A stretch of DNA of 64,000 nt, from positions 12,420 to 76,419 of the forward strand of contig JANWXW010000147.1 of NCBI GenBank assembly GCA_025057315.1. The letters are read 5' to 3'. The notes under the pieces are model-generated. The model did not search any database, had not been told where the DNA came from, and saw nothing but the letters and a program-made list of their open reading frames with translations. Positions 9,153-28,530 of this stretch are shown piece after piece (positions within the stretch are counted from its first letter, which is position 1; each line of letters opens with the position of its first letter). Origin of the DNA: Myxococcota bacterium (GTDB lineage Bacteria; Myxococcota_A; Polyangia; Palsa-1104; JAEUJZ01). The position numbers and the translations under genes are program-made.

Positions 9153-9158
9153 CCTACC

Positions 9159-10359: not shown

Positions 10360-10373
<14 letters not shown>
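9159..10373 (-). CDS. DUF790 / Bax1-like endonuclease (XPB-associated nuclease family)
   Basis: 404 aa, TTG start overlapping the XPB stop by 14 nt. The C-terminal region (LEVLGYWSREAV) resembles the Bax1 nuclease core. It is a partner of the adjacent XPB-like helicase. Confidence 0.5.
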
Positions 10374-11729
<1,356 letters not shown>

Positions 11730-11777
11730 TCTCAGAGGGGGGCGGGACCAGCGCGTGGTCTTTGCCGGCGCTTGTAG

Positions 11778-11889
11778 CAGAAGCGGGCCGCCGCCGCCAG
11801 GCCATCAGAGCGGGATCGACCCGCTGCGGGGCGCTGTGCACCTCCATCTTGATCGCCGAAGCGGGCCGCCGCCAGGCCATCAGAGCGGG
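11778..11889. repeat. two copies of a ~35-45-nt imperfect direct repeat (GAAGCGGGCCGCCGCC[GCC]AGGCCATCAGAGCGGG) with a 77-nt period. The second copy contains the stop codon of the GspE-like gene.
   Basis: Read directly from the sequence. Also visible as the duplicated LMAWRRPASA in the shadow ORF. Confidence 0.6.
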
Positions 11890-15447: not shown

Positions 15448-16842
15448 ATGCGGGTTCGGCTGCGCGGGGCGGGCCCTCTGCTCCGACCGTTCTTTGCCAT
15501 CTTGATCACGTGTGGGCTGCTGGCCTGGTTCTGCAGCCGCGACGAGGAGGCCAGGCGGGCGATGCTGCGCGTGCGCGACACGGCGTCGCTGGTGCGCGAG
15601 GCGCCGACGCTGCTGTGGCCGCCGTGGCGGGCGCTGCGGCTCTACGTCTCGATCGACGACGACGTGAGCCTCTACTATGAGCTGTCGCGGGTGGTGTTGG
15701 GGGAGGCGGCGGACGCCGAGCAGATGCTGCGGTTTGACCACCGGCCGGATCCGGCCGAGGTGGCGGCGCTGCGGGCGCGGCTGGCCCAGGCGCGCGGCAG
15801 GCGGTGGCCGACGGGCCTGCAGCTGGGCTTCCCGCCGCTGTCGGTCCTGCTGATGGTGCTGCCGCGGCTGGCCGTGGACACGCTTGGGGCGTACCGGGTG
15901 GCGTTTGCGGTCCTGCTGGCCCTGCTGTACCTGGGGGCGTGGGGGGTGGCCGTGGCGGGGGCGGCAGGCCTGCCCCGGCGGGTGCTGTTGGGACGGATGG
16001 CGCTGGTGACGGCCTGCATGGGGCCGGTGCTGGTTGCCCGGCTGGATGTGCTGCCCGCGCTGCTGGTCGTCGCGGCGCTGGGGGCGCTGGCGCGGGGGTG
16101 GGCGCTGGCAGCGGGGCTGCTGCTGGTGCTGGGGGGGGCGGCCAAGCTCTACCCGTTGTTTTTGCTGCCGGTGTGGGCGGCGCTGCTGTGGGGCTGGGGG
16201 GGGGCGGCGCGCCGCCAGGCGGTGGCGCTGCTCGGTGGGCCGGCACTGCTCGGCGGGCTGGGCCTGCTGCTCGGCGGGCTGCCAGCGCTGGGGGAGCACC
16301 TGCGGCTGTTTGCCCGGCGGCCGGTGCAGATCGAGTCGGTGGTCGGGGCCGTGCTGCACGCTGCGGGCTGGCCGAGCGACTATGGGTTTGGCTCCAACAA
16401 CCTGCTGCTGCCCCCGTGGGTGCCCATGGCGCTGGACGGTCTGCTGGGGGGGGCGGTGCTGGCCCTGGCGGCCGGGGCAGGGCGGTGGGCGGCGCGGCAC
16501 CGCGATGGAGCGGCGCGGCGGCAGGCGCTAACCTGGTTTGCGGTGGCGACGGTGCTGGTGGTCATCACGACGAGCAAGGTGCTGTCGCCCCAGTATCTTG
16601 TCTGGCTGGTGCCGCCGGCGGCGATGCTGCCAGGCAGGGCCGGGCGCCTGGTGCTGCTGGGGGTGTGCGCGGCGATGTTGCTGACGCAGGTCTACGTGCC
16701 CTTTATGTACAGCTGGCTGATGGAGCGGCGGTGGCCGCTGCTGCTGCTGGTGCTGGTGCGCAACGGCCTGCTTGTGGGGCTGGCCGCGGGGGTGCTGGGC
16801 GTCCTGGTTCGCTCAGGGCGCCGGGACGAGGCCCTCGCGTAG
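15448..16842 (+). CDS. polytopic membrane protein, DUF2029/GT87-like glycosyltransferase
   Basis: 464 aa, multi-TM. AKLYPLFLLP motif. Paralogous architecture to 13656..15158, divergently transcribed. Confidence 0.5.
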   Translation: MRVRLRGAGPLLRPFFAILITCGLLAWFCSRDEEARRAMLRVRDTASLVREAPTLLWPPWRALRLYVSIDDDVSLYYELSRVVLGEAADAEQMLRFDHRPDPAEVAALRARLAQARGRRWPTGLQLGFPPLSVLLMVLPRLAVDTLGAYRVAFAVLLALLYLGAWGVAVAGAAGLPRRVLLGRMALVTACMGPVLVARLDVLPALLVVAALGALARGWALAAGLLLVLGGAAKLYPLFLLPVWAALLWGWGGAARRQAVALLGGPALLGGLGLLLGGLPALGEHLRLFARRPVQIESVVGAVLHAAGWPSDYGFGSNNLLLPPWVPMALDGLLGGAVLALAAGAGRWAARHRDGAARRQALTWFAVATVLVVITTSKVLSPQYLVWLVPPAAMLPGRAGRLVLLGVCAAMLLTQVYVPFMYSWLMERRWPLLLLVLVRNGLLVGLAAGVLGVLVRSGRRDEALA

Positions 16843-17979
16843 CAGAAACGCCGCCAGGCGCTGGGCCACCAGGTCGGCGGCAAAGGGGGTATGGTGGCAG
16901 TGGTCGTAGAAGAGGGGCCGGTGGGGAGCCTGCTGCCAGGCAGCGCGCAGGGCGGGCAGCAGGTCCTCGTGGGGCAGGTGGTGGCGGGTCATGAGGTCGC
17001 GGAAACGGCGCTGGGGCTCGTTGTGCACCTGGTGCGCCTCGACCTGATGGCGCACCGGCAACAAGGCTGCGGCGAGGCGGAAGCCGTGCTGGCGGCCGGC
17101 TTGCTCGATGCGTCCGAGCGCCGCCTCGATGCGCTGCCAGGCCGCCGGGGACCAGGCCGCCCCCCAGTCGCGCGCCTGGCGGACGATGAGGGCGTCGAAG
17201 GCCTCCGGATCGGTGCGCCAGTTGCCGGGGCGGAGCTGACGGCCGCGGGCAAACTCGTGCACCCAGGCCTGTCCCTCGGCGCGCAGCTCGGCCCAGTGGG
17301 TCCACTCGAACCACAGGCGCTGGGCGCTCTGGTAGACCAGGCCTGCCAGGTAGCTCTTGCCGAGCCAGCCAGACAGGGAGCGGGGGCGCATGCGCAGGGA
17401 CGGATAGCCGTCGTTCAGGTACATGGCCACCAGGACCAGGTCGGGCTGCATGGCCAGGCCGGCGTCGCGCAGGATGGCATACTCGGTCTCTGTGTCTGCG
17501 CTGCCGATGCCCAGGTTGATGACGCGGACCCGGCGCCCGCTGGCCTGCAGCAGCCGCTCCAGCCGGAAGGCGAAGGTTTCCTCGTCGGGCAGGTAGTCGG
17601 CCAGGGTAATGGAGTCGCCCAGAAGCAGCACGCGGAACTCGCCGGGCGGCTTGGGTCCTACCTCGGGCCCGCGGTAGCCGGCCGAGTTGGTGGTGAAGGT
17701 GATGTCCCGGCCAGAGACGAAGTGATGGCGGATGCGGATGCGCGCGCGCGGCACCAGGCCCACCGAGCCGGTGCGGCTGTAGCGGTAGGCCTCGTTGCCG
17801 AAGGCGTGTTGCTCCAGCTGGCGCGGGCCGGTGGCGGCCTGCAGGGAGTCCACCACGACCATCTGCGACTGGCCCAGACGGCGACAGAGCCACTCGCCCA
17901 GGCCTGTCAGGAGCAGCACCGTGACCAGCAGCAGGGCCAGGTTGGGCAGCAGCCTGCGCAGAAGGGGGGGCAGGCCCAT
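16813..17979 (-). CDS. SGNH/GDSL-family hydrolase (esterase/acyltransferase-like)
   Basis: Start ATG 17979 (MGLPPLL, N-terminal TM). GDS block VLLLGDSITLADY. Later DxxH-like region. Convergent 30-nt overlap with 15448..16842. Confidence 0.7.
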   Translation of the reverse strand: MGLPPLLRRLLPNLALLLVTVLLLTGLGEWLCRRLGQSQMVVVDSLQAATGPRQLEQHAFGNEAYRYSRTGSVGLVPRARIRIRHHFVSGRDITFTTNSAGYRGPEVGPKPPGEFRVLLLGDSITLADYLPDEETFAFRLERLLQASGRRVRVINLGIGSADTETEYAILRDAGLAMQPDLVLVAMYLNDGYPSLRMRPRSLSGWLGKSYLAGLVYQSAQRLWFEWTHWAELRAEGQAWVHEFARGRQLRPGNWRTDPEAFDALIVRQARDWGAAWSPAAWQRIEAALGRIEQAGRQHGFRLAAALLPVRHQVEAHQVHNEPQRRFRDLMTRHHLPHEDLLPALRAAWQQAPHRPLFYDHCHHTPFAADLVAQRLAAFLLREGLVPAP

Positions 17980-17980
17980 G

Positions 17981-18199
17981 CTAAAAGAGCATGTAGATGT
18001 AGCTGGAGATGGCGCTGCTGTTGGCCAGCACGATGAGGCCGCCGATGCTGACCAGCATGAGCACGGTGGGCAGCAGCCACCAGGCCTTGCGCTCCCTGAG
18101 GAAGCCCCACACGTCGGCCAGCAGCGTGCGGTTGCGCAGGGCCCGCAGGCGGGCCTCGCGACCAAGAAAGGAGTCGTGGGTGTTGTGCATGGTGGTCAC
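17981..18199 (-). CDS. DUF5989-like small membrane protein
   Basis: 72 aa, single TM (WWLLPTVLMLVSIGGLIVL). Sits immediately downstream of the carbamoyltransferase, as is typical for this family. Confidence 0.5.
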   Translation of the reverse strand: MTTMHNTHDSFLGREARLRALRNRTLLADVWGFLRERKAWWLLPTVLMLVSIGGLIVLANSSAISSYIYMLF

Positions 18200-18216
18200 T
18201 TACGTCACTTGGTCTT

Positions 18217-19978
18217 TTAGTCTTTGGCGTATGTTTCGCTGTCCCAGATGTGCTGGGGGTTGTCCTCGCGGCGGATGCAGTAGTCGCCCATGATGAGATA
18301 GTCGATGCCGGTGCCCATCATGCAGCGGTAGGCATCCAGGGGGGTGCACACGATGGGCTCACCGCGGATGTTAAACGAGGTGTTGACCAGCATCGGGACG
18401 CCTGTGCGTCGGCCGAAGGCGCGGATGGTATCGTAATAGAGCGGGTTGTTCTCCCGGCGGATGGTCTGCAGGCGGCCCGAGTCGTCCACGTGGCGCACGG
18501 CGGGCAACCGGTCGCGGTGGGCAGGCCGGATGGGGTAGACCATGAGCATGAAGTCACAGGGTGCGGGCAGCGGCGAGTCGCACTCGAAGTAGGTGTCGGC
18601 GTCCTCGGCGCACACGACGGGGGCGAAGGGGCGAAACCGCTCCCGGTGCTTGACCTTTTCGTTCAGGATGTCGCGCATCCGGGGGTTGAGCGGGTTGGCC
18701 AGGATGCTGCGGGCGCCGAGCGCGCGGGGGCCCCACTCCATGCGGCCCTGCATCCAGCCCACCACGTGGTCCTCGGCCACCAGGCGCGCCGTGGTCTCGA
18801 CGATCTCCTCGTCGCTGCGCAGCCGCTGGTAGCGGACGCCGTTCTGGTCCAAAAACGCGCCGATCTCGGCGGAGGAGAAGCTGGGGCCGAGGTAGGGGCT
18901 GCTTAGGGTCCAGTGGCGGGGCCGGCCCAGCAGGGTATGGTAGATGTAGGCCGCCGCGCCGATGCTGGTACCGGCGTCGCTGGCATTGGGCTGGATCCAG
19001 ACCCGGCGGAAGGGGGTCAGGCGGAGGATTTTGCCGTTGAAGACGCTGTTGAGCGCCACGCCACCCGCCATAACCAGGTTGTCGCAGCCGGTTTCGCGGT
19101 GCAGGTGGCACAGCATGCGACAGAGCACGTCCTCGGTAAGGAGCTGCACGGCCGCGGCGATGTCCTGCAGGCGCGGGGTCATGACCGAGTCGGGCGGCGC
19201 CGCTGGTCCGCCGAGCAGGTCACACAGCTTCTGCGACGGCATGCGCTCGGCATAGTGGTAGCAGAAATAGGACATGTCCAGGCGCAGACTGCCGTCCTCG
19301 CGCACCTGGACGACGTCGCGCAGCCGGGCATAGAAGGGGTTGGTGGCCCGGTCGCGGTTGCCATAGGCGCTCAGGCCCATCACCTTGTACTCGGAGTTGT
19401 TGACGCTGAAGCCGAGGTAGGCGGTGATGGTGGAGTAGAGCAGGCCCAGCGAGTGGGGAAAGCGGATGTCTTTGCGCAGGTGAATGCGGGTGCCCTCGCC
19501 GATGCCATAGGAGGCGGTGGTCCATTCGCCCACGCCGTCCACGGTCAGGATGGCAGCGCGCTCGAACGGGCTGACCAGGAAGGCGCTGGCTGCATGGGCC
19601 ATGTGGTGCTCCAGAAACAGCACGCTGCCGCGGTAGCCCAGGGCCTTGCGCAGCGTCCGGCGCAGCCGGATCTTTTCGTTCAGCCAGGACGGCAGCGAGG
19701 AGACAAAGGTCCGGTAGCTGCGCGGAAAGGACTCCAGGTGCTGACACAGCACGCGCTCGAACTTGAGCAGCGGCTTCTCGTAAAAGCCAATGTAGTCCAC
19801 ATCTTGGATGCGCAGGCCCTGGCTCTCTAGACAGTAGCGGATGGCGTGGATGGGGAACGACTGGTCGTGTTTGATGCGGGTAAAGCGCTCCTCTTCGGCA
19901 GCGGCGACGATGACACCGTCGCGCAGCAGGGCTGCTGCTGCGTCGTGGTAGTGGCAAGAGACGCCCAAGATGTTCATG
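18217..19978 (-). CDS. carbamoyltransferase, NodU/CmcH (HypF-like) family
   Basis: Start ATG 19978 (MNILGVSCHYHDAAAALL). Conserved N-terminal ASKHA-like and C-terminal YrdC-like carbamoyltransferase regions. About 587 aa. Confidence 0.85.
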
Positions 19979-19979
19979 G

Positions 19980-20510
19980 CTAGTACTGGCGAAAATAGGC
20001 ATCCAGCGAGCGCGCCTCTAGGTCGAGGTCCTGCCAGAACGTCTCCTTGTCGGGAGCCGGGGCCAGGTCCAGGAAGCGTCGGCGCAGCAGGCGCGCCACC
20101 AGCGCGGTGGGTCCCAGGGCGCCAAAGTAGATGATGGTCAGCAGGATCGCGTTGACGCCTAGGGCCACGTGGCGGCCGAAGGTACGCATGCCGTGCAGGA
20201 GGCTGCGCCAGAGCGGGCCTGCGCCGTCGTCCCGCGGCCGGCCTGGCAGCAGCCGCAGGGCATTGAGCAGCAGCACCACGCCCATCCCGCCCAGGATGTG
20301 GGGGATGCCGACGTGCTCGCGTACCAGCGCCACCTTGCGCGAGAGCATGTGGTGGGTCAGCAGCGCAAACACAAGCAGACCGAGGTGGTAGCCGACCAAC
20401 GCACCCACGCGGCCCGGCGGCAGCCGGTCCCCTGGGGGGCTGGGGGACGGGCTGGACCAGACGGACCGCAGGGGCGGCGGGGTGGCAGCAGGCGCCGTGG
20501 GCAGCCTCAT
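19980..20510 (-). CDS. SxtJ-like small membrane protein (hypothetical)
   Basis: Three predicted TM helices. Position immediately upstream of the carbamoyltransferase matches the SxtJ-like family context. Start uncertain. Confidence 0.4.
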   Translation of the reverse strand: MRLPTAPAATPPPLRSVWSSPSPSPPGDRLPPGRVGALVGYHLGLLVFALLTHHMLSRKVALVREHVGIPHILGGMGVVLLLNALRLLPGRPRDDGAGPLWRSLLHGMRTFGRHVALGVNAILLTIIYFGALGPTALVARLLRRRFLDLAPAPDKETFWQDLDLEARSLDAYFRQY

Positions 20511-20540
20511 GGACGGGTCTCTCCCCCGCTCGGCCAGGGC

Positions 20541-21737
20541 CTAGCCTTCGGCGGCCATGCGGGGTACAGGCTTGCCCAGCTGGATGACGGCAGGTCCTGT
20601 CCACCGCCGTAGGGGGGCCAGACCGGCCGACCTTGCGCAGCGCTCCTGCGCCATTTGGTAGACCCGTTCATGCCGCCAGATGACCTCATCCCATGCAAAG
20701 CGGTCGAGATCAAGTTTGGCCTCCTCGGCCATGCGATGCCGCAGCTCGGCATCGCACAGCAGGCGGACGATGTAGTCGATAAATTCCTCCCAGGTGTCGG
20801 CCAGAAACCCGTGCCGGCCGTGCACCAGCGCATCGCTGACCCCGCCGTGGTTGCGCGCCACGACCGGCAGGCCAACGCAGCGCGCCTCCAGGGTGGCGAT
20901 GCTCAGCGCCTCCTTGATGGTGGGCAGGACAAAGAGCGCAGACCGCGCCAGGATGTGCTTGATCTCCTGCCTGGACAGCAGGCCTGGCAGCTCCAGCAGG
21001 TCCTCAACGCCCAGCCGATGGGCCTCCCGCTCGACCCGTGGCCGCTCGGGGCCGTCTCCCACCAGCGTGAAGCGCGGACAGATGCCGGGGGGCAGACGGC
21101 GCATAATCTCCGGGATGGCGCGGACAAAGTCGGTGGGCCGCTTGCGGCGGGTAAAGCGCATCACGCTGGTGACGCGCAGCTCTGAGGTGGGTGGCCGCTG
21201 CACTCGCCAGGCGTCCAGGTCGATGCCGTTGGGCAGCACGACGATGTCGTCTCGGCGGTAGATGCGGCGCTGTTCCTGCACCACGTACCGGCTGACGCCG
21301 GACAGGACGTCTGGGCGGCCCAGCCAGCCTGACACCGAGTCCAGCAGACGCAGCAAAGTACGCTGGCCGCGCAGCACCGAATGCTCGGTGACCACCGACG
21401 GGATGCCAAGGCGGCGCGCGACGTGGACACCGCCGATGGCCAGGGGCGATAGGCCGGCGTGACAGTGCAGCAGGTCGAAGCGCTCCCGGCGCACGATCTC
21501 CTCCAGCACGTCGAGGGCACGGCGGTTGGCGATGGTTCGCAGCACGGGCAGCAAGGGAACCCGCAGCCGGTGCACGGGGAAGCCATCCTGCCCGGGTGGC
21601 CCCGGCGTGGCGGTGATGACGTGGGCCTCATGGCCGCGCCGGGTGAGCTCACGTGCCAGGTCGCGCATGTGCAGCTCCAAGCCGCCCACCCGGGGCAGGT
21701 ACCAGTCGCTGACCAGAGCTATCTTAAGGGACGGCAC
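20541..21737 (-). CDS. glycosyltransferase family 1 (GT-B, GT4-like)
   Basis: 398 aa. N-terminal GT4 domain (LVSDWYLPRVGG). C-terminal Glycos_transf_1 motif (EALSIATLEARCVGLPVVA, the E-x7-E region). Confidence 0.85.
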   Translation of the reverse strand: MPSLKIALVSDWYLPRVGGLELHMRDLARELTRRGHEAHVITATPGPPGQDGFPVHRLRVPLLPVLRTIANRRALDVLEEIVRRERFDLLHCHAGLSPLAIGGVHVARRLGIPSVVTEHSVLRGQRTLLRLLDSVSGWLGRPDVLSGVSRYVVQEQRRIYRRDDIVVLPNGIDLDAWRVQRPPTSELRVTSVMRFTRRKRPTDFVRAIPEIMRRLPPGICPRFTLVGDGPERPRVEREAHRLGVEDLLELPGLLSRQEIKHILARSALFVLPTIKEALSIATLEARCVGLPVVARNHGGVSDALVHGRHGFLADTWEEFIDYIVRLLCDAELRHRMAEEAKLDLDRFAWDEVIWRHERVYQMAQERCARSAGLAPLRRWTGPAVIQLGKPVPRMAAEG

Positions 21738-21821
21738 GCCGGCACCTGACGCAAGAACCGTTCCTCCCTCCTCGCGGCAGGGGGCCTCGCCGGCTGACAG
21801 TGGGGGTGTCGAGGATCTGAC

Positions 21822-22943: not shown

Positions 22944-23799
22944 GGGCTGGACGGGGGGGGGATCGCACAGCCCGCCACAGCCTGCGGCCGCCCAGGGCCA
23001 GGACCACCAGGCCGCTGGCGGCCGTGGCCAGGACGTAGCTGATGGACCGATCGAGCAGCGCGATGGCCAGTGCGGTTTCGACCGGCACTCCGTAGAGACA
23101 CAGGGTGGCGGTCAGGCTCGCCTCCACCACGCCCAGGCCGCCCATCATCGGCACCGCAGCGCCGGCGGCCGCTGCAAAACACAGCCCGACCGCCTGCGAG
23201 GGCTTCAGCCACACGCCGAAAGCCGCCGCTGCGGCTGCCAGACGGAGGATGTCTGCAGCCCAGACCAGCAGCGAGATGCCCAGGGCCCGCAGCAGGGGCC
23301 CCCGCGGCAGATGCACGCGGGCCAGCTGGGCTCGCAGCCGCTGACGCCAGCCATGCTCCCCAGAGGCCGCACGCAGCAGCGCCAGCGCCGCGACCCCGGC
23401 TGCCAGGACAAGCGCCAGCGGGCCCAGGTGGCCGCGCCGGGCGACATCGGGCAGGGCCGGCAGGGCCAGGAGCAGAAACAGCGGCGCCGGCACCCAGTCG
23501 AGCAGGCGGTCGTAGGCTGCCGACGCGGCGGCTCGTCGCAAGTCCACCCGCGTGCGCAGCTGCAGCACCACGACGCGGCCGATCTCGCTGCCGAGGCGGC
23601 CAGGCGTGACGTTGTTGAGGAAGGTAAAGGCCAGGTTGGCCAGGATCGTCTCGCGCAGCCGCACCGCCTCCTCCAGGCCCAGCAGGAGCGTCTGCCAGCG
23701 ACGCCCACCCAGATAGACCCAGGCGGCATACAGGGCCGCCACCGCGAGCACCAGAGCGGGGTTGGCGCCGAGCAGCGCCTCCACAGAGCGCTGCAGCAT
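22921..23799 (-). CDS. UPF0104 / lysylphosphatidylglycerol-synthase-TM-like (flippase-like, HpnL-like) membrane protein
   Basis: Start ATG 23799 (MLQRSVEALL). 8 predicted TMs. Charged loop RLGSEIGRVV typical of UPF0104. 8 nt downstream of the MMPL gene. Confidence 0.65.
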   Translation of the reverse strand: MLQRSVEALLGANPALVLAVAALYAAWVYLGGRRWQTLLLGLEEAVRLRETILANLAFTFLNNVTPGRLGSEIGRVVVLQLRTRVDLRRAAASAAYDRLLDWVPAPLFLLLALPALPDVARRGHLGPLALVLAAGVAALALLRAASGEHGWRQRLRAQLARVHLPRGPLLRALGISLLVWAADILRLAAAAAAFGVWLKPSQAVGLCFAAAAGAAVPMMGGLGVVEASLTATLCLYGVPVETALAIALLDRSISYVLATAASGLVVLALGGRRLWRAVRSPPRPAHDGTAPA

Positions 23800-23807
23800 G
23801 TGCTGGA

Positions 23808-26294
23808 TCACGGCAGGCGTGCCTGGCGCCGCGCCAGGATCTGCGCCAGGATTGGCAGCACCAGCAGCGCCGCCATCAGGCAGGTCACCTCGCCCAGGTC
23901 CGCCAGCAGGCCAAAGGAGCGCAGCGCCCGGTTGTGCGACAGCAGCAGGGAGCTGTAGCCGATGATGGTCGTCAGCGAGCACAGCGCGACCGCCGAGCCG
24001 GTGTGGGTAATGACGTCCCGGACGCGGTCGCGGCCCTGGCGCAGCCGCGCCCAGATGTTGGCCGCATAGTCGGCGCCGATCCCCAGCGTGATTGGCAACC
24101 CGACGAAGTTCATAAAGTTAAGCTTCAAGCCAATGGCCCCCAGCAGCCCCCCTAGCCAGCACAGGCCCACGCTCAGCGACACCAGGACCGGCAGGGCGCC
24201 GGGCCAGCCGAACGACAGCAGCATCAGCAAGCTCACCCCGACCAGAGCCGCCAGCGTGATGCGCGGGCCGTCCTGGATGATGGTCGAGATCATGCCGGCA
24301 AAGACGGTGGCCGTGCTGGCAGCGACCCAGGTCTTGCCCTCTGCCTCCACCTGGAGCACCTCGGCGATGCGCAGCAGGTCCCGCCCATTCCAGGCATAGA
24401 AGGTAGTCGGGTCGGCGTCGATGCCGATGAGGCGGCCCCGGGTGCCATCGATCTCGGTGAACGCCTCGCGCACAATCTGCGGCAGGTCGTCCACACCGAT
24501 GCGGCGCAGGTAGTCGGGCGGACGGAAGCGATCGACCTCGCGGCGCTCCTCGTCCGTCATCAGGTGCATGTGGCGGTCGATCTTGCGGCGGATGCGGGCC
24601 AGGATCTCCAGCTTCTCGTCCTGCTCGGAGGGCAGCACGGAGTTGAGCGTCCGCACCACGCTGAGCACATGGCGGGCGCCCAGGGCTCGATCCTTGGCCC
24701 GGATCGCCTCGGCGACGACGTCGGCCTGCTCGGGGCGGTCGACCAGCAGCACGCCGTCGTTGCCGATGTGGCCGGCGCCCACCGCCCCCATGCCCATCAT
24801 CTCCATCCGTCCCCACAGGCGCTGCGCCTCGGTCTGCTCGCTGCGCAGGTTCTCGAAGTTCCACTCCAGCGGGTCGGCAGCGTAGCGGACCAGGGGCACA
24901 ATGGCCGCCACCACCAGGGCCAGGCTCGCCAGCCCGAGCCAGCCCGCGTAGCGTTCGGCCAGGCGGCCTACGGCGGCAAAGGGTCGCTCCCACAGGTTCA
25001 TGCGCGGCGTGAAGAGGCCCGGCCACCGCCGCTCGCCCCAGATGATCATGGGTGGCACGAGCAGGAAGGCCATCAGCCACACCAGCAGCATGCCGGCGCC
25101 GCCCACCAGCCCGAACTGGCTGAAGCCGCGGAAGCTGGTTCCCAGCAGGCAGCCATAGGCGATGCTGGCTGCAGCCACTGCCGTGATGGTCGCCAGCAGG
25201 GTGGAAGACATGGCTCGGGCCAGCGATGGCCCGACGGCCAGACCCCGACTGCGCTCCTCCCCGAAGCGCGCCACCAGGATGATCGGCGTGTTGATGCCGT
25301 TCCCCAGGATGATCGAGATGAGGAACGACGTGTTCATGTTCAGGTGCTGGATGGTAAAGCGCGCCAGGACCAGCGCCAACAGCAGCCCCAGCACGGCGGG
25401 TGCGCCCACCACCAGCAGCAGGGCCGGCCGGCGAAAGTAGGAGTAGATGGCCAAAAAGACCAGGGTGCCACACAGCAGGGTGGCCAGGGTGAGGTCGTTG
25501 CGAATCGCCTCGCTGTCATCCAGAACGTGGGCAATGTGGCCGGTGTAGCGGACGGTCAGCTTCGGGTGGAAGGAGGTCGGCCGGAGGCGGCGCACCTCAG
25601 AGCGCACGGCCGCCATGGTCTCGAAGTCGCCGGCGGTGGCCAGGCCATCGCGGCGCTTCCACAGCATGATGCCCAGGTAGTGGAGCCCGTCCTCGCTCGC
25701 CAGGAAGTAGTCCGTTTGCGAGCGCGGCGGCACCTTCTGCTCCAGCCCGCGGCGCAACTCGCTCAGCTCTTGCTCCGGATCGCCTTCCAGATCCACCAGG
25801 AAGGGGGAGGTGCGCCGGGCAATGATCCGGTCCAGCAGCGCCTCGGCGCGCTCCAAATCGGCCCGCTCCGCGTACAGCCACCGCCATCGGGCGGCAAACT
25901 CCGGCCCCTCCGTGTCCGGCCGCCACTGGATCTCGGTGAAGACGCGGGGGATCATCGCCTCCAGGCGGGGACGGAGGGCCTCTGCGAAGCGGCGGTTTGC
26001 CTCCTGGTCTGGACTCTCGATGATCATCACCAGGTTGGTGGCGCTTTTCTGCCGCGGCGTGACCGTACGGATCGCCCGCACAGCGGGGTGGTGCTCGGGG
26101 AGCAACTCGACCAGATCGGTGCGCAGCTCGAGCTGGCTAACCGGCACGAGCGCAGAGAGCGCCAGCAGCCCTAAGGCGCCGAGCACCAGGCTGGTTTTTC
26201 GCTCCGCAAACCGGACGTAGCCGGCAAAGAGGCGATCAAAGAGGCGATCGACGACGCGGTTTGGAACACCGTGCTGGCTGGGAAGACTGGTCAA
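23808..26294 (-). CDS. MMPL/RND-superfamily transporter (HpnN-like lipid exporter)
   Basis: 828 aa. Two 6-TM bundles, each followed by a large periplasmic loop (a 12-TM RND-like fold). MMPL-like conserved TM4/TM10 regions. Confidence 0.8.
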   Translation of the reverse strand: MTSLPSQHGVPNRVVDRLFDRLFAGYVRFAERKTSLVLGALGLLALSALVPVSQLELRTDLVELLPEHHPAVRAIRTVTPRQKSATNLVMIIESPDQEANRRFAEALRPRLEAMIPRVFTEIQWRPDTEGPEFAARWRWLYAERADLERAEALLDRIIARRTSPFLVDLEGDPEQELSELRRGLEQKVPPRSQTDYFLASEDGLHYLGIMLWKRRDGLATAGDFETMAAVRSEVRRLRPTSFHPKLTVRYTGHIAHVLDDSEAIRNDLTLATLLCGTLVFLAIYSYFRRPALLLVVGAPAVLGLLLALVLARFTIQHLNMNTSFLISIILGNGINTPIILVARFGEERSRGLAVGPSLARAMSSTLLATITAVAAASIAYGCLLGTSFRGFSQFGLVGGAGMLLVWLMAFLLVPPMIIWGERRWPGLFTPRMNLWERPFAAVGRLAERYAGWLGLASLALVVAAIVPLVRYAADPLEWNFENLRSEQTEAQRLWGRMEMMGMGAVGAGHIGNDGVLLVDRPEQADVVAEAIRAKDRALGARHVLSVVRTLNSVLPSEQDEKLEILARIRRKIDRHMHLMTDEERREVDRFRPPDYLRRIGVDDLPQIVREAFTEIDGTRGRLIGIDADPTTFYAWNGRDLLRIAEVLQVEAEGKTWVAASTATVFAGMISTIIQDGPRITLAALVGVSLLMLLSFGWPGALPVLVSLSVGLCWLGGLLGAIGLKLNFMNFVGLPITLGIGADYAANIWARLRQGRDRVRDVITHTGSAVALCSLTTIIGYSSLLLSHNRALRSFGLLADLGEVTCLMAALLVLPILAQILARRQARLP

Positions 26295-26531
26295 TGGAAC
26301 ACCTGCGGCCTGGCCCTCTGGACCCCGCCCAGAACAACGGCCGGGCGGCTTGCCCGATCCGGATCAGCTTGCGTGGACAAAGCATATGCATGCCCTTTGC
26401 GGCGTGCAACAAAGGAACAGCCCGAGGCCCTGTCGGACAGGTGTCAATTTTTCACCACCGGAGGTGAAGGTCTGGCACATGGTTGGGCGCAGCACGCTAC
26501 CACGAAGGCCGCTGGGTCGGATACAGTGCAG

Positions 26532-27776
26532 ATGATGATCCCCCCCGGCAAGGGAACCTATCTTCTCTGCATGCGGCTCCTCGGCCCCTCTGCCACCCTC
26601 CCCTGGCTGCTGCTTGTGCTTGGGCAGGTCGCTGGCAGGGTGTGGGCCATGCCTGTGCCAGCGACGCGGACCGTGCTGCCTGCAGACAGGGTGCTGAAGC
26701 TAGCGCCCCTGCTGACCACGGCCGAGTTGGTGCTGCTCGAGTCCGACGAGCGGCGCGCGCTGCGCCAGCTTACCACCCTCAGTTGGGTCGCCGCCCCGCC
26801 CGCCCTGGTGCGCGAGGTGGTGGCCCGCCCTGACCGCTACCCCGAGTTCGTGCGCAACATGACGATTTCCGAGGTGAAGCGGCTTCCCGATGGCAGCCTC
26901 GACCATCGCTACGAGCTGGGCTACTCGATCGCCACCATCGGCGGGATGAGCCGCTTCGTGTTCGACGCCGGGGCGTCGGGCAGCTGGCTGCCAGGCATTG
27001 ACATGTACGATCCGGAGCCCGGCGGCGCGCGCTGGCACCGCTGGGATTTTCTTCCCGCAGGTGGTGGTACGATCATTGTGTTGTCGGGCTACCCGGACGT
27101 CCATCACTCCGGAGAGCTGATCGATCGTCTGCTCAACGCCGTCCCGACCTTGGAGCACGGCCTGGCGCTGATGGGCCAGATGACGCTGCTGCTGGCCATG
27201 AAACATCGGGCCGAGCAGCTGGCCGCGGAACGCAAGCTGGATGTACAGCCCCCGCAGGGGCCAGCCACCGGCTACGAGTTCTTGCTCGCCCACGGCGTGC
27301 TCTCGCTGCTGCGTGGCAAACAGGGACGCCTGAGCGAGATGACCCTCATCGTGCACCTTCCGGCTGCTCCGGCGGCGGTCATGGAGGTTCTGGGGCGGCC
27401 GCAGCTGTGGTCGTCGTTCATTCCCTCCATCACCCGCAGCGTGGACCTGGGCGAGCGGGGCGGGGCGCCGGCAGTGGAGCTGGAGCAGGCCGTGCCGCTG
27501 CTGTCCTTCCGCACCGTTTACGCCCTGCACCGCACCCCGAGCGCGGTGGACATGCTGGGGCTGTCAGGCGACCTGCGCGGGGCGCGCCTGCGGTGGGACG
27601 TCCGACCGATTGGGGGAGGGGGGACCCGGCTGGTGTTGCGCACACGCCAGGAGTTCGATCGGGCCAGCGTGATTCTGCGCCAGCTTTATAAGCTGGAGCC
27701 GCTTTTCGAATACGGCGTCAACATGGGGCTCGGCCTGGTGCTGCTCTGGGGCATTGCCGCCCGGGTGGCCCCCTGA
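26532..27776 (+). CDS. secreted protein with two SRPBCC(START/Bet v1)-like lipid-binding domains (tentative)
   Basis: Start ATG 26532, or the signal-peptide-like MRLLGPSATLPWLLLVLG. Two roughly 150-aa repeats with polyketide_cyc2-like signatures (RYPEFV..., LWSSFIPS...). Confidence 0.4.
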   Translation: MMIPPGKGTYLLCMRLLGPSATLPWLLLVLGQVAGRVWAMPVPATRTVLPADRVLKLAPLLTTAELVLLESDERRALRQLTTLSWVAAPPALVREVVARPDRYPEFVRNMTISEVKRLPDGSLDHRYELGYSIATIGGMSRFVFDAGASGSWLPGIDMYDPEPGGARWHRWDFLPAGGGTIIVLSGYPDVHHSGELIDRLLNAVPTLEHGLALMGQMTLLLAMKHRAEQLAAERKLDVQPPQGPATGYEFLLAHGVLSLLRGKQGRLSEMTLIVHLPAAPAAVMEVLGRPQLWSSFIPSITRSVDLGERGGAPAVELEQAVPLLSFRTVYALHRTPSAVDMLGLSGDLRGARLRWDVRPIGGGGTRLVLRTRQEFDRASVILRQLYKLEPLFEYGVNMGLGLVLLWGIAARVAP

Positions 27777-27813
27777 GGCGCGCCTGCGGGCCCACGCTAG
27801 CATGGGAGCTCGC

Positions 27814-28530
27814 ATGGAGGTCTGCATCACCATCGACGTCGAGCAGGACTGCCCGCCCTACCTTGACAGCTACCGCGGCATCGAGGAGGGCATGCCCCAG
27901 CTGATGGCGCTGCTGCGTGAGGAGGGGGTGCCAGCCACCTTCTTTACAACGGGCGATGTCGCCCGCCGCTATCCTGCGGTGGTGCGCCGCATCGTGGCTG
28001 AAGGGCACGAACTCGGCGCCCATGGCGACACCCACCGCCGGTTCAGCGAGCTGGATGCTGCCCAAGCTCGCGCCGAGCTGGAGGCTGCCAGCGCCACCCT
28101 GCGTGCCTTTGCCCCGGTGGTTTCCTTCCGCGCGCCCAACCTCGACCTACCGGCCTGTGTTCTGCCCCTGTTGCGCCAGCACGGCTACCGCATCGACTCC
28201 TCCCAGGGCCGGCACAAACACGGTCTGTACTTCCGCCGCCCGCGCGTGCACCGAGAGGCAGGGCTGTGGCGCGTGCCGGCGTCCCTGCCACCGAGCGTGC
28301 TGCGGGCACCTGGTCCGCTGCCGAATCTGCTGTGCGCGCTGTGCGAGAGCCCCTTTGTGCCTTTTTACCACCCATGGGACTTTGTCGACCTGCGGGGCGC
28401 GCCGATCCCGCTGGACTGTCGCCTGCGCAGCGGGGAGGCGGCCCTGCGGCACCTGCGCCGCACGATCCGTTGGCTGCGGCGGCGGGGTGCGCGCTTTCTG
28501 CGCCTGGCCGACCTGTCCTTCCCCGATTGA
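27814..28530 (+). CDS. polysaccharide deacetylase (NodB homology, CE4)
   Basis: ITIDVEQD (the TFDD-like Asp motif), HELGAHGDTH (His-His metal site) and a RAPN motif. 238 aa. Confidence 0.8.
   Translation: MEVCITIDVEQDCPPYLDSYRGIEEGMPQLMALLREEGVPATFFTTGDVARRYPAVVRRIVAEGHELGAHGDTHRRFSELDAAQARAELEAASATLRAFAPVVSFRAPNLDLPACVLPLLRQHGYRIDSSQGRHKHGLYFRRPRVHREAGLWRVPASLPPSVLRAPGPLPNLLCALCESPFVPFYHPWDFVDLRGAPIPLDCRLRSGEAALRHLRRTIRWLRRRGARFLRLADLSFPD

What the first reader, a model, noticed from the sequence alone, without database searches (positions are those of the whole stretch)
16813..28530. Composite glycoconjugate/lipid modification and export neighbourhood: carbamoyltransferase cassette plus HpnH/HpnL/HpnN-like trio, with no cyclase in view
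**Seen in sequence:**
- About 12 kb of mostly minus-strand genes, separated by 1-40-nt gaps or short overlaps: SGNH hydrolase, DUF5989, NodU/CmcH carbamoyltransferase, SxtJ-like, GT1, radical SAM (CNLSCSYC plus C-terminal Cys cluster), UPF0104 flippase-like, MMPL/RND.
- On the plus strand, diverging from the MMPL gene: a tandem-SRPBCC secreted protein and a NodB-type deacetylase.
- Immediately upstream, two paralogous DUF2029/GT-C membrane glycosyltransferases.

**Established knowledge:**
- Radical SAM HpnH, UPF0104 HpnL and RND HpnN co-occur in hopanoid side-chain and export clusters.
- The GT / SxtJ / carbamoyltransferase / DUF5989 / SGNH cassette is widespread with no assigned product.

**Inference:** Together these would build, carbamoylate, (de)acylate and export a lipid-anchored glycan or modified polycyclic/isoprenoid lipid. 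No squalene-hopene cyclase or squalene synthase is present in the window, so the substrate may not be a hopanoid. I know of no described system that combines these modules.
Basis: partly seen in the sequence, partly recalled or inferred. Interest (0 to 1): 0.8.

Follow-up and report, generated by a model that had tools for sequence, protein, structure and literature searches.

The report
Carbamoylated amino-glycolipid synthesis and export operon
This uncultured myxobacterium carries a gene cluster that most likely builds a glucosamine-type membrane glycolipid, decorates it (including with a carbamoyl group) and ships it to the outer membrane; it is not a hopanoid cluster, and it extends a recently described kind of amino-glycolipid pathway.

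Summary
Pfam and NCBIfam confirm the carbamoyltransferase, DUF5989, GT4, radical SAM, UPF0104, MMPL/RND and NodB genes. Profile comparison supports the SxtJ-like ORF (C-terminal half only) and the tandem SRPBCC. The SGNH assignment rests on sub-threshold Pfam hits plus a GDS motif.

The HpnH/HpnL/HpnN label fails every curated cut-off. The better frame is the synthase-deacetylase-flippase ("SDF") operon type shown to make cationic amino-glycolipids (GpgSDF in P. aeruginosa, HexSDF in C. difficile).

In this window that triad is joined by:
- an HpnN-like RND pump and a secreted tandem lipid-binding protein;
- two GT-C-type membrane proteins (GT-C fold modelled for one);
- a radical SAM enzyme of unknown function.

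This core recurs, in shuffled gene orders, in about ten independent uncultured-bacterium (probably Myxococcota) contigs. That argues for one pathway.

The carbamoyltransferase/SxtJ/DUF5989/SGNH cassette matches SxtI/J/K/L of saxitoxin clusters. Elsewhere it sits in exopolysaccharide (EPS) loci. Among the loci I fetched, it joins this core only here.

No cyclase or squalene gene is in the 64 kb. The acceptor lipid, the sugar and the radical SAM chemistry remain inferred.

Verdict: a new variant of a known kind, of moderate interest.

The parts
13656..15158 (-). GTC_A: polytopic membrane glycosyltransferase with a GT-C fold, from a rare family with no Pfam model. Proposed periplasmic glycosyl transfer from a polyprenyl-phosphate sugar.
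   Evidence: The AF2 model has pLDDT 89. The top 21 Foldseek PDB hits are all GT-C enzymes: STT3/AglB/PglB, ArnT (TM 0.55), ALG12/9/6, AftA. Only 10 homologues were found, at 42-53% identity. Homologues lie inside the module in L098, L160 and L161.
15448..16842 (+). GTC_B: polytopic membrane protein (about 12 hydrophobic segments), probably a GT87/MptA_B-type GT-C glycosyltransferase.
   Evidence: It has no direct Pfam hit (best is PIG-M, E=0.06). It is 49% identical to an L162 protein with a weak GT87 hit, which sits next to a GTC_A homologue. hhalign against the MptA_B family gives Prob 53%, E=1.4e-4.
16813..17979 (-). SGNH/GDSL-type esterase or acyltransferase with one N-terminal membrane anchor (SxtL-like member of the carbamoyl cassette).
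   Evidence: Lipase_GDSL_2 E=4.6e-5 and ALGX E=7e-4, both below gathering score. NCBIfam LA_2490-family GDSL E=8.7e-7. GDS motif present. 27% identity to the SGNH gene next to a carbamoyltransferase in Leisingera. One TM segment.
17981..18190 (-). DUF5989 small single-pass membrane protein (SxtK-sized partner of the carbamoyltransferase).
   Evidence: PF19451 66 bits against a cut-off of 27. 35-50% identical to DUF5989 genes beside carbamoyltransferases in Planctomycetes, Ensifer and Gemmatirosa.
18217..19977 (-). NodU/CmcH/SxtI-type carbamoyltransferase (cytoplasmic, no TM segment).
   Evidence: PF02543 271 bits and PF16861 233 bits. The NodU equivalog scores only 160 bits against a cut-off of 1000. 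48-50% identical to cassette carbamoyltransferases on plasmids.
19980..20510 (-). Small membrane protein with an SxtJ-like C-terminal half. The N-terminal ~95 residues are Pro/Ser-rich and unmatched.
   Evidence: No Pfam or NCBIfam hit. Self-hit only. BLASTP against an annotated SxtJ gives E=1e-5. hhalign against SxtJ alignment A3 gives Prob 94%, E=1.2e-7 over 71 columns.
20541..21737 (-). GT4 retaining glycosyltransferase, proposed HexNAc (GlcNAc) transferase onto a membrane-lipid acceptor (the 'synthase').
   Evidence: Glyco_transf_4 99 bits and Glycos_transf_1 94 bits, plus a PIGA hit. The closest NCBIfam model is BshA at 106 bits, below its cut-off of 274. The closest solved relatives are BshA and MshA. 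An E-x7-E motif is present in the sequence. The gene is co-conserved with NodB, with or without UPF0104, in about 35 loci.
21822..22889 (-). Radical SAM enzyme of SPASM/twitch type, from an uncharacterised and very conserved family. Proposed modification of a lipid-linked sugar.
   Evidence: PF04055 80 bits. No equivalog: HpnH scores 45.6 against a cut-off of 225. Relatives are 58-73% identical. AF2 + Foldseek gives SkfB, BlsE, PqqE, AbmM, viperin and DesII at TM about 0.5. Relatives are fused to PpgS/ArnC-like GT2, DedA/VTT and NodS-like methyltransferase domains.
22921..23799 (-). UPF0104 / LPG_synthase_TM flippase-like membrane protein (GpgF/HexF/MprF-flippase type).
   Evidence: PF03706 123 bits. 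TIGR00374 76 bits against a cut-off of 43; no HpnL hit. 7 TM-like segments.
23808..26294 (-). MMPL-domain RND transporter, HAE3/HpnN-like at family level. Proposed extraction and export of the glycolipid from the inner membrane.
   Evidence: PF03176 85 bits. HpnN models score 170 (cut-off 752) and 109 (cut-off 1100), HAE3 130 (cut-off 352), BstA 123 (cut-off 1400). The nearest solved structures are HpnN 5khn and 6wu0 at 55-58 bits. 11 TM segments and two large loops.
26295..26531 (.). 237-nt divergent intergenic region between the MMPL operon and the SRPBCC-NodB pair. Presumed to hold the promoters.
   Evidence: Gene coordinates. No Rfam family. The consensus promoter scan was uninformative.
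26532..27776 (+). Secreted protein made of two SRPBCC/START-like domains. Proposed periplasmic lipid carrier.
   Evidence: Polyketide_cyc2 37 bits on the C-terminal half. hhalign of N-half against C-half gives Prob 96%, E=4e-9. N-termini look like signal peptides in all homologues. 41-45% identical orthologues sit in the module in L001, L085, L098 and L160.
27802..28530 (+). NodB-type (CE4) deacetylase without a signal peptide. Proposed de-N-acetylation of the HexNAc-lipid.
   Evidence: PF01522 71 bits. The best NCBIfam model is the XrtA-system polysaccharide deacetylase at 70 bits; NodB scores 59. No TM segment. 54-64% identical orthologues lie next to rSAM/GT4 in relatives.

Best explanation
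The locus is one pathway for an envelope amino-glycolipid. It is built on the synthase-deacetylase-flippase ('SDF') logic known from GpgSDF and HexSDF.

**Proposed steps**
1. At the cytoplasmic face, the GT4 enzyme puts an N-acetyl-hexosamine, probably GlcNAc from UDP-GlcNAc, on a membrane-lipid acceptor of unknown identity.
2. The cytoplasmic NodB-type deacetylase frees the amine.
3. The carbamoyltransferase, held at the membrane by the small SxtJ-like and DUF5989 proteins, adds a carbamoyl group from carbamoyl phosphate.
4. The radical SAM enzyme makes a further, unknown change to the lipid-linked sugar.
5. The UPF0104 protein flips the product to the periplasmic leaflet.
6. There the two GT-C-type enzymes extend it from polyprenyl-phosphate sugars. 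The membrane-anchored SGNH protein edits ester or carbamate groups.
7. The HpnN-like RND pump and the secreted tandem-SRPBCC carrier move the finished lipid towards the outer membrane.

**Shown:** the gene families, operon-like packing, predicted topology classes, co-conservation of the core in relatives, and the GT-C fold of one membrane protein.

**Inferred:** the sugar, the acceptor lipid, the order of steps, the site of carbamoylation, the radical SAM chemistry and the destination.
For: **Families and packing**
- The eight minus-strand genes are separated by 1-84 nt.

**The core triad matches characterised SDF systems**
- GT4 + deacetylase + UPF0104 is the architecture of GpgSDF, where it is sufficient for GlcN-PG synthesis in E. 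coli (PMC12713373).
- It is also the architecture of HexSDF (PMC10128005).
- The nearest characterised GT4s are BshA and MshA. Both are UDP-GlcNAc transferases whose products are then deacetylated.
- The GT4-NodB pair or the UPF0104-GT4-NodB triad recurs in about 35 metagenome loci, down to 25% GT4 identity.

**The extended core is co-conserved with shuffled gene order**
- L001/L085: GT-C | NodB | rSAM | GT4 | SRPBCC | GNAT | UPF0104 | MMPL.
- L098: MMPL, UPF0104, GTC_A, GT4, methyltransferase, NodB, SRPBCC.
- L160: all members contiguous.
- L161, L163 and L164 show further permutations.

**Individual components**
- GTC_A has a GT-C fold.
- The SRPBCC protein is a tandem repeat with a signal-peptide-like N-terminus.
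- The RND's nearest solved relatives are HpnN lipid exporters.
- The carbamoyl cassette equals SxtI/J/K/L. In other genomes it lies in glycan loci, next to a GT4 or a sugar O-acetyltransferase.
- rSAM relatives are fused to polyprenyl-P-HexNAc-synthase-like GT2, DedA/VTT and NodS-like methyltransferase domains. The nearest folds include the sugar-modifying rSAMs BlsE, DesII and AbmM.
- Hydropathy puts GT4, NodB, CT and rSAM as soluble proteins and the other members, except the secreted SRPBCC carrier, in the membrane.
Against: - No enzyme reaches any curated equivalog cut-off. GpgS (NF053787) scores only 24 bits against 480. Sugar and acceptor are therefore guesses.
- The characterised SDF systems have no RND, GT-C, rSAM or carbamoyl genes.
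- The rSAM is missing from some module loci (L098, L161). It is a solitary gene in Acidobacteriota, so its role may be separable from this pathway.
- The carbamoyl cassette was found with the core only in this MAG, and in none of the roughly 22 fetched loci whose GT4 is at least 45% identical to the window's. Its coupling to the core rests on operon packing alone.
- No polyprenyl-P-sugar synthase (GT2) for the GT-C enzymes is in the window.
- All comparison loci are metagenomic. No product or phenotype is known.
Confidence: 0.5

Rival explanations
1. Carrier-lipid aminosugar transfer, as in the Arn/Lgm/Flm lipid A modification pathways. The glycosyltransferase would load HexNAc on polyprenyl phosphate. 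The NodB/ArnD-type enzyme would deacetylate it and UPF0104 would flip it. An ArnT-like GT-C enzyme would then transfer the aminosugar, possibly carbamoylated or rSAM-modified, to a periplasmic acceptor such as lipid A, another outer-membrane lipid or a protein.
For: - GTC_A's best-superposing structural hits include ArnT (TM 0.55).
- The NodB protein weakly hits ArnD (NF011923, E=4.9e-5).
- rSAM relatives are fused to PpgS/ArnC/DPM1-like GT2 domains and to a DedA/VTT domain. From general knowledge, DedA proteins are linked to polyprenyl-phosphate handling.
- Two GT-C genes belong to the conserved module.
Against: - From general knowledge, known polyprenyl-P sugar synthases are GT2. Here the conserved transferase is a GT4 closest to BshA/MshA.
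- The flippase is the UPF0104 type used by GpgSDF and HexSDF, not ArnE/F.
- The ArnD score is 22.7 bits against a cut-off of 382.
- A dedicated RND pump plus a periplasmic lipid carrier is not needed for Arn-type modification, yet both are co-conserved here.
Confidence: 0.2
2. Two or more unrelated modules that merely sit side by side. The carbamoyltransferase/SxtJ/DUF5989/SGNH cassette would decorate some other glycan, for example an exopolysaccharide made elsewhere in the genome. The rSAM would have its own housekeeping role.
For: - The cassette is absent from every other module locus fetched.
- Elsewhere it sits in exosortase/EPS or Yjb-type polysaccharide loci.
- The rSAM is solitary in about 80 Acidobacteriota loci and absent from L098 and L161.
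Against: - The cassette lies inside the minus-strand string, 30 nt after GT4. Internal gaps are 1-26 nt and codon usage is host-like, with GC3 0.88-0.94.
- No terminator-like site falls in an intergenic gap of the string.
- rSAM and GT4 are adjacent or overlapping in at least 12 independent loci.
Confidence: 0.12
3. A secreted or capsular polysaccharide, or O-antigen-like glycan, locus. A lipid-linked oligosaccharide would be assembled by GT4, deacetylated, carbamoylated, flipped, and then polymerised or transferred by GT-C enzymes.
For: - The top NCBIfam hits of NodB and GT4 include XrtA/PEP-CTERM-system EPS enzymes.
- The carbamoyl cassette is typical of EPS loci.
- GT-C enzymes include glycan polymerases and ligases.
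Against: - The cluster has no initiating phosphoglycosyltransferase, Wzx/Wzy, Wza/Wzc or ABC exporter.
- The conserved partners are instead lipid-transport proteins: MMPL RND and secreted SRPBCC.
- The flippase-like protein is the UPF0104 type linked to lipid head-group systems.
Confidence: 0.1
4. One reading: a hopanoid-like or other polycyclic/isoprenoid lipid side-chain pathway (HpnH adenosylation, HpnL, HpnN export) with glycosyl and carbamoyl tailoring.
For: - HpnN is the best-scoring named family and the nearest solved structure for the RND.
- From general knowledge, hopanoid clusters also combine a GT (HpnI), a deacetylase (HpnK), an rSAM (HpnJ), UPF0104 (HpnL) and an RND (HpnN).
Against: - HpnH scores 45.6 against a cut-off of 225, and lower than PqqE or MoaA. 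There is no HpnL hit. HpnN scores 170 (cut-off 752) and 109 (cut-off 1100).
- There is no shc, squalene synthase or other hpn gene in the 64 kb, nor among the genes with Pfam hits in the relatives' modules examined.
- The rSAM family is ubiquitous in acidobacterial groups, including Pyrinomonadaceae and Vicinamibacterales. From general knowledge, these are not hopanoid producers.
Confidence: 0.05

Closest known systems
GpgSDF of Pseudomonas aeruginosa (glucosaminyl-phosphatidylglycerol synthase, deacetylase, flippase; PMC12713373)
   Same: Three-component logic with the same protein classes: a cytoplasmic GT4 synthase, a cytoplasmic deacetylase and a UPF0104 (COG0392) flippase-like membrane protein.
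   Different: - The window GT4 scores 24 bits on the GpgS model against a cut-off of 480.
- The deacetylase is NodB/CE4, not COG3233.
- Genes are split over two divergent transcription units.
- An RND pump, an SRPBCC carrier, two GT-C proteins, an rSAM and a carbamoyl cassette are added.
- The acceptor lipid is unknown.
HexSDF of Clostridioides difficile (aminohexosyl-hexosyl-diradylglycerol; PMC10128005)
   Same: Glycosyltransferase + polysaccharide (NodB-type) deacetylase + MprF-like flippase domain. An acetylated intermediate is deacetylated to a cationic amino-glycolipid.
   Different: - HexS is annotated as an MGDG-synthase-type GT, not BshA/MshA-like.
- The host is Gram-positive, so no outer-membrane export is needed.
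- There is no tailoring by carbamoyl, rSAM or GT-C enzymes.
SxtI/SxtJ/SxtK/SxtL of cyanobacterial saxitoxin clusters (PMC2679770), and the carbamoyltransferase / SxtJ / DUF5989 cassettes annotated in Planctomycetes, Ensifer and Gemmatirosa
   Same: The same four gene types: an O-carbamoyltransferase of about 600 aa, a small SxtJ-type membrane protein, a membrane protein of about 55-70 aa (DUF5989) and a GDSL/SGNH protein.
   Different: - Here the substrate is presumably a glycolipid, not an alkaloid or EPS.
- The gene order is J-I-K-L.
- The SxtJ-like protein matches only in its C-terminal half.
- The roles of J and K are unknown in every system.
Hopanoid-associated HpnH / HpnL / HpnN (and HpnI/J/K)
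   Same: Same superfamilies: radical SAM, UPF0104 and HAE3-type RND. HpnN is the nearest solved relative of the RND. The overall logic of a tailored lipid plus a dedicated RND exporter is similar.
   Different: All three fail the curated cut-offs. There are no cyclase or squalene genes nearby. The rSAM belongs to a different, SPASM/twitch-type family.
Arn / Lgm / Flm lipid A aminosugar modification pathways (ArnC-ArnD-ArnEF-ArnT)
   Same: The sequence GT, then NodB-family de-acylase, then flippase, then GT-C transferase. GTC_A superposes on ArnT.
   Different: The GT is GT4, not GT2. The flippase is UPF0104, not ArnE/F. ArnD similarity is marginal. The added RND and SRPBCC export pair has no counterpart.
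GPI-anchor / PIM logic (PIG-A GT4, PIG-L deacetylase, flip, PIG-M-type GT-C mannosyltransferases)
   Same: A GT4 with a PIGA-domain hit, de-N-acetylation, translocation, then GT-C enzymes of MptA_B/GT87 or PIG-M-like type.
   Different: The deacetylase is NodB, not the PIG-L/LmbE family. There are no inositol-lipid genes in view. The resemblance is in logic only.

Membership tests
HpnH (adenosyl-hopene transferase, TIGR03470) | Score at or above the curated equivalog cut-off (225 bits) | tested here: not met
   45.6 bits, covering the radical SAM core only. PqqE (73.5) and MoaA (71) score higher.
HpnL (TIGR03476) | A match to the HpnL subfamily model (cut-off 195.65 bits) | tested here: not met
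   No HpnL hit at E<=0.01. Only the generic flippase-like TIGR00374 (76 bits) and MprF (33 bits) match.
HpnN (TIGR03480 / NF052374) | Score at or above the curated cut-offs (751.85 / 1100 bits) | tested here: not met
   170.5 and 109.1 bits. The nearest PDB relatives are HpnN, but at 55-58 bits.
Hopanoid biosynthesis cluster | Squalene-hopene cyclase and squalene synthesis genes (shc, hpnCDE) in the genome, usually nearby | tested here: not met
   None is present in the 64-kb window, nor among the genes with Pfam hits in the relatives' loci examined. Genome-wide absence is not testable here.
SDF-type amino-glycolipid operon (GpgSDF / HexSDF) | Co-located glycosyltransferase + deacetylase + UPF0104/MprF-like flippase-domain protein | tested here: met
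   GT4, NodB and PF03706 proteins lie within 8 kb of each other. The triad or pair is conserved in many loci. The architecture is as described in PMC12713373 and PMC10128005.
SDF-type amino-glycolipid operon (GpgSDF / HexSDF) | Synthase orthologous to GpgS (NF053787, cut-off 480 bits) | tested here: not met
   24.4 bits. This is the same kind of system, not the same enzyme or product.
SDF-type amino-glycolipid operon (GpgSDF / HexSDF) | Product is a HexNAc-lipid that is deacetylated to a HexN-lipid | not testable with these tools
   Needs lipidomics of a heterologous host or a cultured relative.
SxtI/J/K/L-type carbamoylation cassette | Carbamoyltransferase with N- and C-terminal CT domains | tested here: met
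   PF02543 271 bits and PF16861 233 bits.
SxtI/J/K/L-type carbamoylation cassette | Adjacent DUF5989 (SxtK-size) protein | tested here: met
   PF19451 66 bits. It lies 26 nt downstream of the carbamoyltransferase.
SxtI/J/K/L-type carbamoylation cassette | Adjacent SxtJ-family membrane protein | tested here: inconclusive
   Only the C-terminal ~75 residues match (hhalign Prob 94%, E=1.2e-7). There is no library hit.
SxtI/J/K/L-type carbamoylation cassette | Adjacent GDSL/SGNH protein (SxtL-like) | tested here: met
   GDS motif present. Lipase_GDSL_2 E=4.6e-5, below the gathering score. It is homologous to the cassette SGNH of Leisingera. SxtL is a GDSL protein per PMC2679770.
NodU (NF041651) | Score at or above the equivalog cut-off (1000 bits) | tested here: not met
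   159.6 bits.
GT-C fold glycosyltransferases | Polytopic membrane protein with a GT-C fold | tested here: met
   For GTC_A: AF2 pLDDT 89, and the top 21 Foldseek hits are GT-C enzymes at probability 1.0. GTC_B was not modelled.
DUF2029 / GT87 (PF09594) | Pfam match for both upstream membrane proteins, and paralogy between them | tested here: not met
   Neither has a PF09594 hit. A versus B gives BLASTP E=8 and hhalign Prob 0.6%. The only link is that GTC_B's 49%-identical homologue carries a weak GT87 hit.
SPASM/twitch radical SAM enzymes | CX3CX2C motif plus a conserved C-terminal Cys cluster for auxiliary Fe-S cluster(s) | tested here: met
   CNLSCSYC is present, and six invariant C-terminal Cys fit CX12GX4C ... 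CX3CX3C. The nearest folds are SkfB, BlsE and PqqE. Cluster binding itself is not testable here.

The most novel reading that the evidence does not exclude
The locus specifies an undescribed class of outer-membrane lipid in uncultured Myxococcota: a glucosaminyl lipid that is carbamoylated, rSAM-modified and extended by GT-C enzymes. It would have its own LPS-independent export route, an HpnN-like RND pump plus a periplasmic tandem-START carrier. Two further consequences would follow. It would give the first substrate context for the long-unexplained SxtJ/SxtK(DUF5989) partners of carbamoyltransferases. It would also give a functional handle on a highly conserved radical SAM family that is near-universal in the Acidobacteriota loci I sampled.
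Probability: 0.3. Interest if true: 0.65.

Novelty: new variant of a known kind. Interest (0 to 1): 0.45.

Why it matters
- **Scope of SDF systems.** If the reading is right, the recently discovered SDF amino-glycolipid systems are the minimal form of a much more elaborate envelope-lipid pathway, found across several phyla. That larger pathway has its own tailoring enzymes and its own inner-to-outer-membrane transport machinery.
- **A test bed for SxtJ and SxtK.** Carbamoyltransferases travel with SxtJ and DUF5989 proteins, whose roles have been listed as unknown in sxt cluster descriptions since at least 2009 (PMC2679770). This locus offers a tractable place to ask what they do.
- **An uncharacterised radical SAM family.** It is about 60% identical between Myxococcota and Acidobacteriota. 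Its fusion partners point to lipid-linked sugar chemistry.
- **Annotation hygiene.** The locus shows that 'HpnH/HpnL/HpnN-like' calls made from superfamily membership can mislabel non-hopanoid lipid clusters.

Tried and rejected
1. **Hopanoid reading.** Rejected on curated cut-offs and on the absence of cyclase or squalene genes.
2. **rSAM as the missing acidobacterial iso-diabolic-acid (membrane-spanning lipid) synthase.**
   - Acidobacteria lack mss (PMC13159169), and this family is ubiquitous there.
   - I set the idea aside as unsupported. Fusions of relatives are to GT2/PpgS-like, DedA and methyltransferase domains.
   - The nearest folds are peptide-, sugar- and nucleotide-modifying rSAMs, not Tes.
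   - The idea is not excluded.
3. **Conserved neighbours of the rSAM in Acidobacteriota.** None is general. There is only a lineage-specific LolA/LolD-like context.
4. **Low-molecular-weight thiol (BshA/MshA) or aminoglycoside-like (BtrM/BtrD/BtrN) pathways.** The GT4 is below the BshA and MshA cut-offs. The partners are membrane and lipid-transport proteins.
5. **Paralogy of the two upstream membrane proteins.** Not detectable.
6. **A second example of core plus carbamoyl cassette.** None was found in about 160 fetched loci.
7. **Recent horizontal acquisition of the cassette.** Codon usage is host-like.
8. **Regulatory RNA or clear promoters and terminators.** Nothing informative.
9. **Large word-based protein search on the SxtJ-like ORF.** It returned only the ORF itself.

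Full report
**1. What is there**

The window is about 70% G+C, so I called genes by third-position GC.

Between 13.6 and 28.5 kb there are twelve genes.
- Eight sit head-to-tail on the minus strand, with gaps of 8, 31, 84, 30, 2, 26 and 1 nt:

| Coordinates | Gene |
|---|---|
| 26294-23808 | MMPL/RND |
| 23799-22921 | UPF0104 |
| 22889-21822 | radical SAM |
| 21737-20541 | GT4 |
| 20510-19980 | small membrane protein (SxtJ-like) |
| 19977-18217 | carbamoyltransferase |
| 18190-17981 | DUF5989 |
| 17979-16813 | SGNH |

- Across a 237-nt spacer, a secreted SRPBCC protein (26532-27776) and a NodB-type deacetylase (27802-28530) run on the plus strand.
- Upstream lie two polytopic membrane proteins: 13656-15158 on the minus strand (GTC_A) and 15448-16842 on the plus strand (GTC_B).

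NCBI holds the same proteins from a 'Myxococcales bacterium' MAG, with consecutive accession numbers that match these gene models.

**2. Check of the observation**

Pfam confirms the carbamoyltransferase (271 + 233 bits), DUF5989 (66), GT4 (99/94), radical SAM (80), LPG_synthase_TM/UPF0104 (123), MMPL (85) and Polysacc_deac_1 (71).

- **SGNH.** The hits are sub-threshold (E=4.6e-5). The GDS motif is present, and the protein is homologous to an SGNH gene next to a carbamoyltransferase in Leisingera.
- **Tandem SRPBCC.** The two halves align at hhalign Prob 96%, E=4e-9. All homologues start with a signal-peptide-like segment.
- **'SxtJ-like' ORF.** It has no library hit and only a self-hit in the large protein search. 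Its C-terminal ~75 residues are homologous to annotated SxtJ-family proteins: BLASTP E=1e-5 and hhalign Prob 94%, E=1.2e-7.
- **'Two paralogous DUF2029' proteins.** Not confirmed.
  - The two proteins show no detectable similarity and have no DUF2029/GT87 hit.
  - GTC_A has a confident AF2 model (pLDDT 89). Its top 21 PDB matches are all GT-C glycosyltransferases, with ArnT superposing best.
  - GTC_B is 49% identical to a protein with a weak GT87 hit. It aligns weakly to the MptA_B family (Prob 53%).
- **No cyclase.** No cyclase, squalene synthase or other hopanoid gene is present among the ORFs of the 64 kb.

**3. The Hpn label fails**

Against NCBIfam:
- The rSAM scores 45.6 bits on HpnH (cut-off 225), below its scores on PqqE and MoaA.
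- The UPF0104 protein has no HpnL hit.
- The RND scores 170 (cut-off 752) and 109 (cut-off 1100) on the two HpnN models.

HpnN is nevertheless the nearest named family and the nearest solved structure, at 55-58 bits. The transporter is HpnN-like only in the sense of belonging to the same broad RND branch.

**4. Related loci**

*The rSAM family.*
- It is very conserved: 64-73% identity in the best 120 hits, and 341 clusters at E<=1e-30.
- A scan of one genome per species returned more than 560 relatives. The best 80 are almost all Acidobacteriota.
- There the gene is solitary. None of the other window proteins lies within 10 kb, and there is no general conserved neighbour.

*The core module.* In uncultured-bacterium (probably Myxococcota) contigs, the rSAM sits in the same company as in the window, but in different gene orders.

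| Locus | Arrangement |
|---|---|
| L001, L085 | GT-C(MptA_B), NodB, rSAM, GT4, SRPBCC, FemAB-like GNAT, UPF0104, MMPL |
| L084, L086, about ten soil contigs | NodB, rSAM, GT4, with or without SRPBCC |
| L098 | MMPL, UPF0104, GTC_A, GT4, methyltransferase, NodB, SRPBCC; no rSAM |
| L160 | every core member contiguous |
| L161, L163, L164 | further permutations |

Retention of the set through rearrangement is good evidence of one pathway.

*Wider reach.* A GT4-NodB pair, or a UPF0104-GT4-NodB triad, persists down to 25% GT4 identity. This includes contigs that look archaeal.

*The cassette.* None of these loci carries the carbamoyl cassette.

**5. What the pieces resemble**

*The triad.*
- GT4 + deacetylase + UPF0104 is the architecture of two characterised operons.
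  - gpgSDF of P. aeruginosa makes GlcNAc-PG and then GlcN-PG, and is sufficient in E. coli (PMC12713373).
  - hexSDF of C. difficile makes an aminohexosyl glycolipid through an acetylated intermediate (PMC10128005).
- The window GT4 is not GpgS: 24 bits against a cut-off of 480.
- Its nearest characterised relatives are BshA and MshA. These are UDP-GlcNAc transferases whose products are deacetylated next.

*The carbamoyl cassette.*
- It equals sxtI/J/K/L of saxitoxin clusters. There J and K are of unknown function, and L is a GDSL protein proposed to decarbamoylate (PMC2679770).
- In Planctomycetes, Ensifer, Gemmatirosa and Leisingera the same cassette lies in polysaccharide loci. Its neighbours there are a GT4 or a sugar O-acetyltransferase.
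- It is therefore a glycan-decoration module.

*The rSAM.*
- It is a SPASM/twitch-type enzyme.
- Its nearest folds are SkfB, BlsE, PqqE, AbmM, viperin, MoaA and DesII, at TM about 0.5.
- Relatives at 41-55% identity are fused to a PpgS/ArnC/DPM1-like GT2, to a DedA/VTT membrane domain, or to a NodS-like methyltransferase.
- This ties the family to membrane-associated sugar chemistry.

**6. Most likely mechanism (confidence about 0.5)**

1. A cytoplasmic GT4 adds HexNAc to a membrane lipid.
2. NodB removes the acetyl group.
3. The carbamoyltransferase, tethered by the SxtJ-like and DUF5989 proteins, and the rSAM tailor the head group.
4. UPF0104 flips the product to the periplasmic leaflet.
5. 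The GT-C enzymes extend it in the periplasm, and the anchored SGNH protein edits it.
6. The RND pump plus the secreted tandem-SRPBCC carrier deliver it outward.

Topology predictions fit this split.

*Shown:* families, packing, co-conservation of the core, the GT-C fold of GTC_A.

*Inferred:* sugar, acceptor, order of steps, carbamoylation site, rSAM chemistry and destination.

**7. Rivals**

- **Arn/Lgm-type carrier-lipid route (0.2).** Favoured by the ArnT-like fold and by the GT2 and DedA fusions. Disfavoured by the GT4 class, the UPF0104 flippase type and the co-conserved lipid-export pair.
- **Juxtaposed but functionally separate modules (0.12).** Favoured by the cassette's uniqueness to this MAG and by the rSAM's solitary life elsewhere. 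Disfavoured by the operon packing and by rSAM-GT4 adjacency in at least 12 loci.
- **EPS locus (0.1).** There are no initiating, polymerising or export genes of that kind.
- **Hopanoid reading (0.05).**

**8. Novelty**

The core is a member of a known kind of system (SDF). The extended, exported, GT-C/rSAM-tailored version is conserved but undescribed. Its fusion with an SxtIJKL-type cassette has so far been seen only in this MAG. I rate it a new variant of a known kind, with interest 0.45.

Noticed in passing
window 21822-22889 (-); loci L003-L083: The radical SAM family is a solitary gene, 58-65% identical, in nearly all Acidobacteriota loci fetched (Acidobacteriaceae, Bryobacteraceae, Pyrinomonadaceae, Vicinamibacterales). 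It has no NCBIfam family of its own. Relatives are fused to PpgS/ArnC-like GT2, DedA/VTT and NodS-like methyltransferase domains. Acidobacteria lack the known membrane-spanning-lipid synthase (PMC13159169), but the fusions point to sugar chemistry rather than acyl-tail chemistry.
   Followed up: partly
L115 9153-11906; L154 9147-11852: A UPF0104 -> GT4 -> NodB-deacetylase triad also occurs on contigs that look archaeal (next to a thermosome gene in L115). The synthase-deacetylase-flippase core may therefore be very old or widely transferred.
   Followed up: partly
L001 13997-15127; L085 13403-14548; L160 5239-6381; L162 839-2140: A FemAB-like GNAT (Acetyltransf_6) gene belongs to the module in relatives but is absent from the whole window. 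The carbamoyl cassette shows the opposite pattern: present only in the window. This may be a swap of the decoration put on the freed amine or on a hydroxyl.
   Followed up: partly
window 7581-13616 (-): Directly downstream of GTC_A, on the same strand and tightly packed, are four genes: a T2SS-E-type ATPase with an MshEN domain, an XPB-like helicase, a DUF790 protein and a PhoD phosphatase. Two PhoD genes also flank the GTC_A homologue in L162. Whether PhoD is linked to the pathway is unknown.
   Followed up: no
window 29666-32578 (+): A 970-aa protein just downstream of the cluster. It has a PA14 domain, a Cys-rich stretch, a predicted membrane/beta-barrel-like middle (Phenol_MetA_deg hit), thrombospondin type 3 repeats and a Lys-rich tail.
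   Followed up: no
L098 11204-11863; L162 6261-6935: In some relatives, a class I SAM methyltransferase (NodS-like in L162) sits where the window has the rSAM or the cassette. Tailoring enzymes of the module appear to be interchangeable.
   Followed up: no
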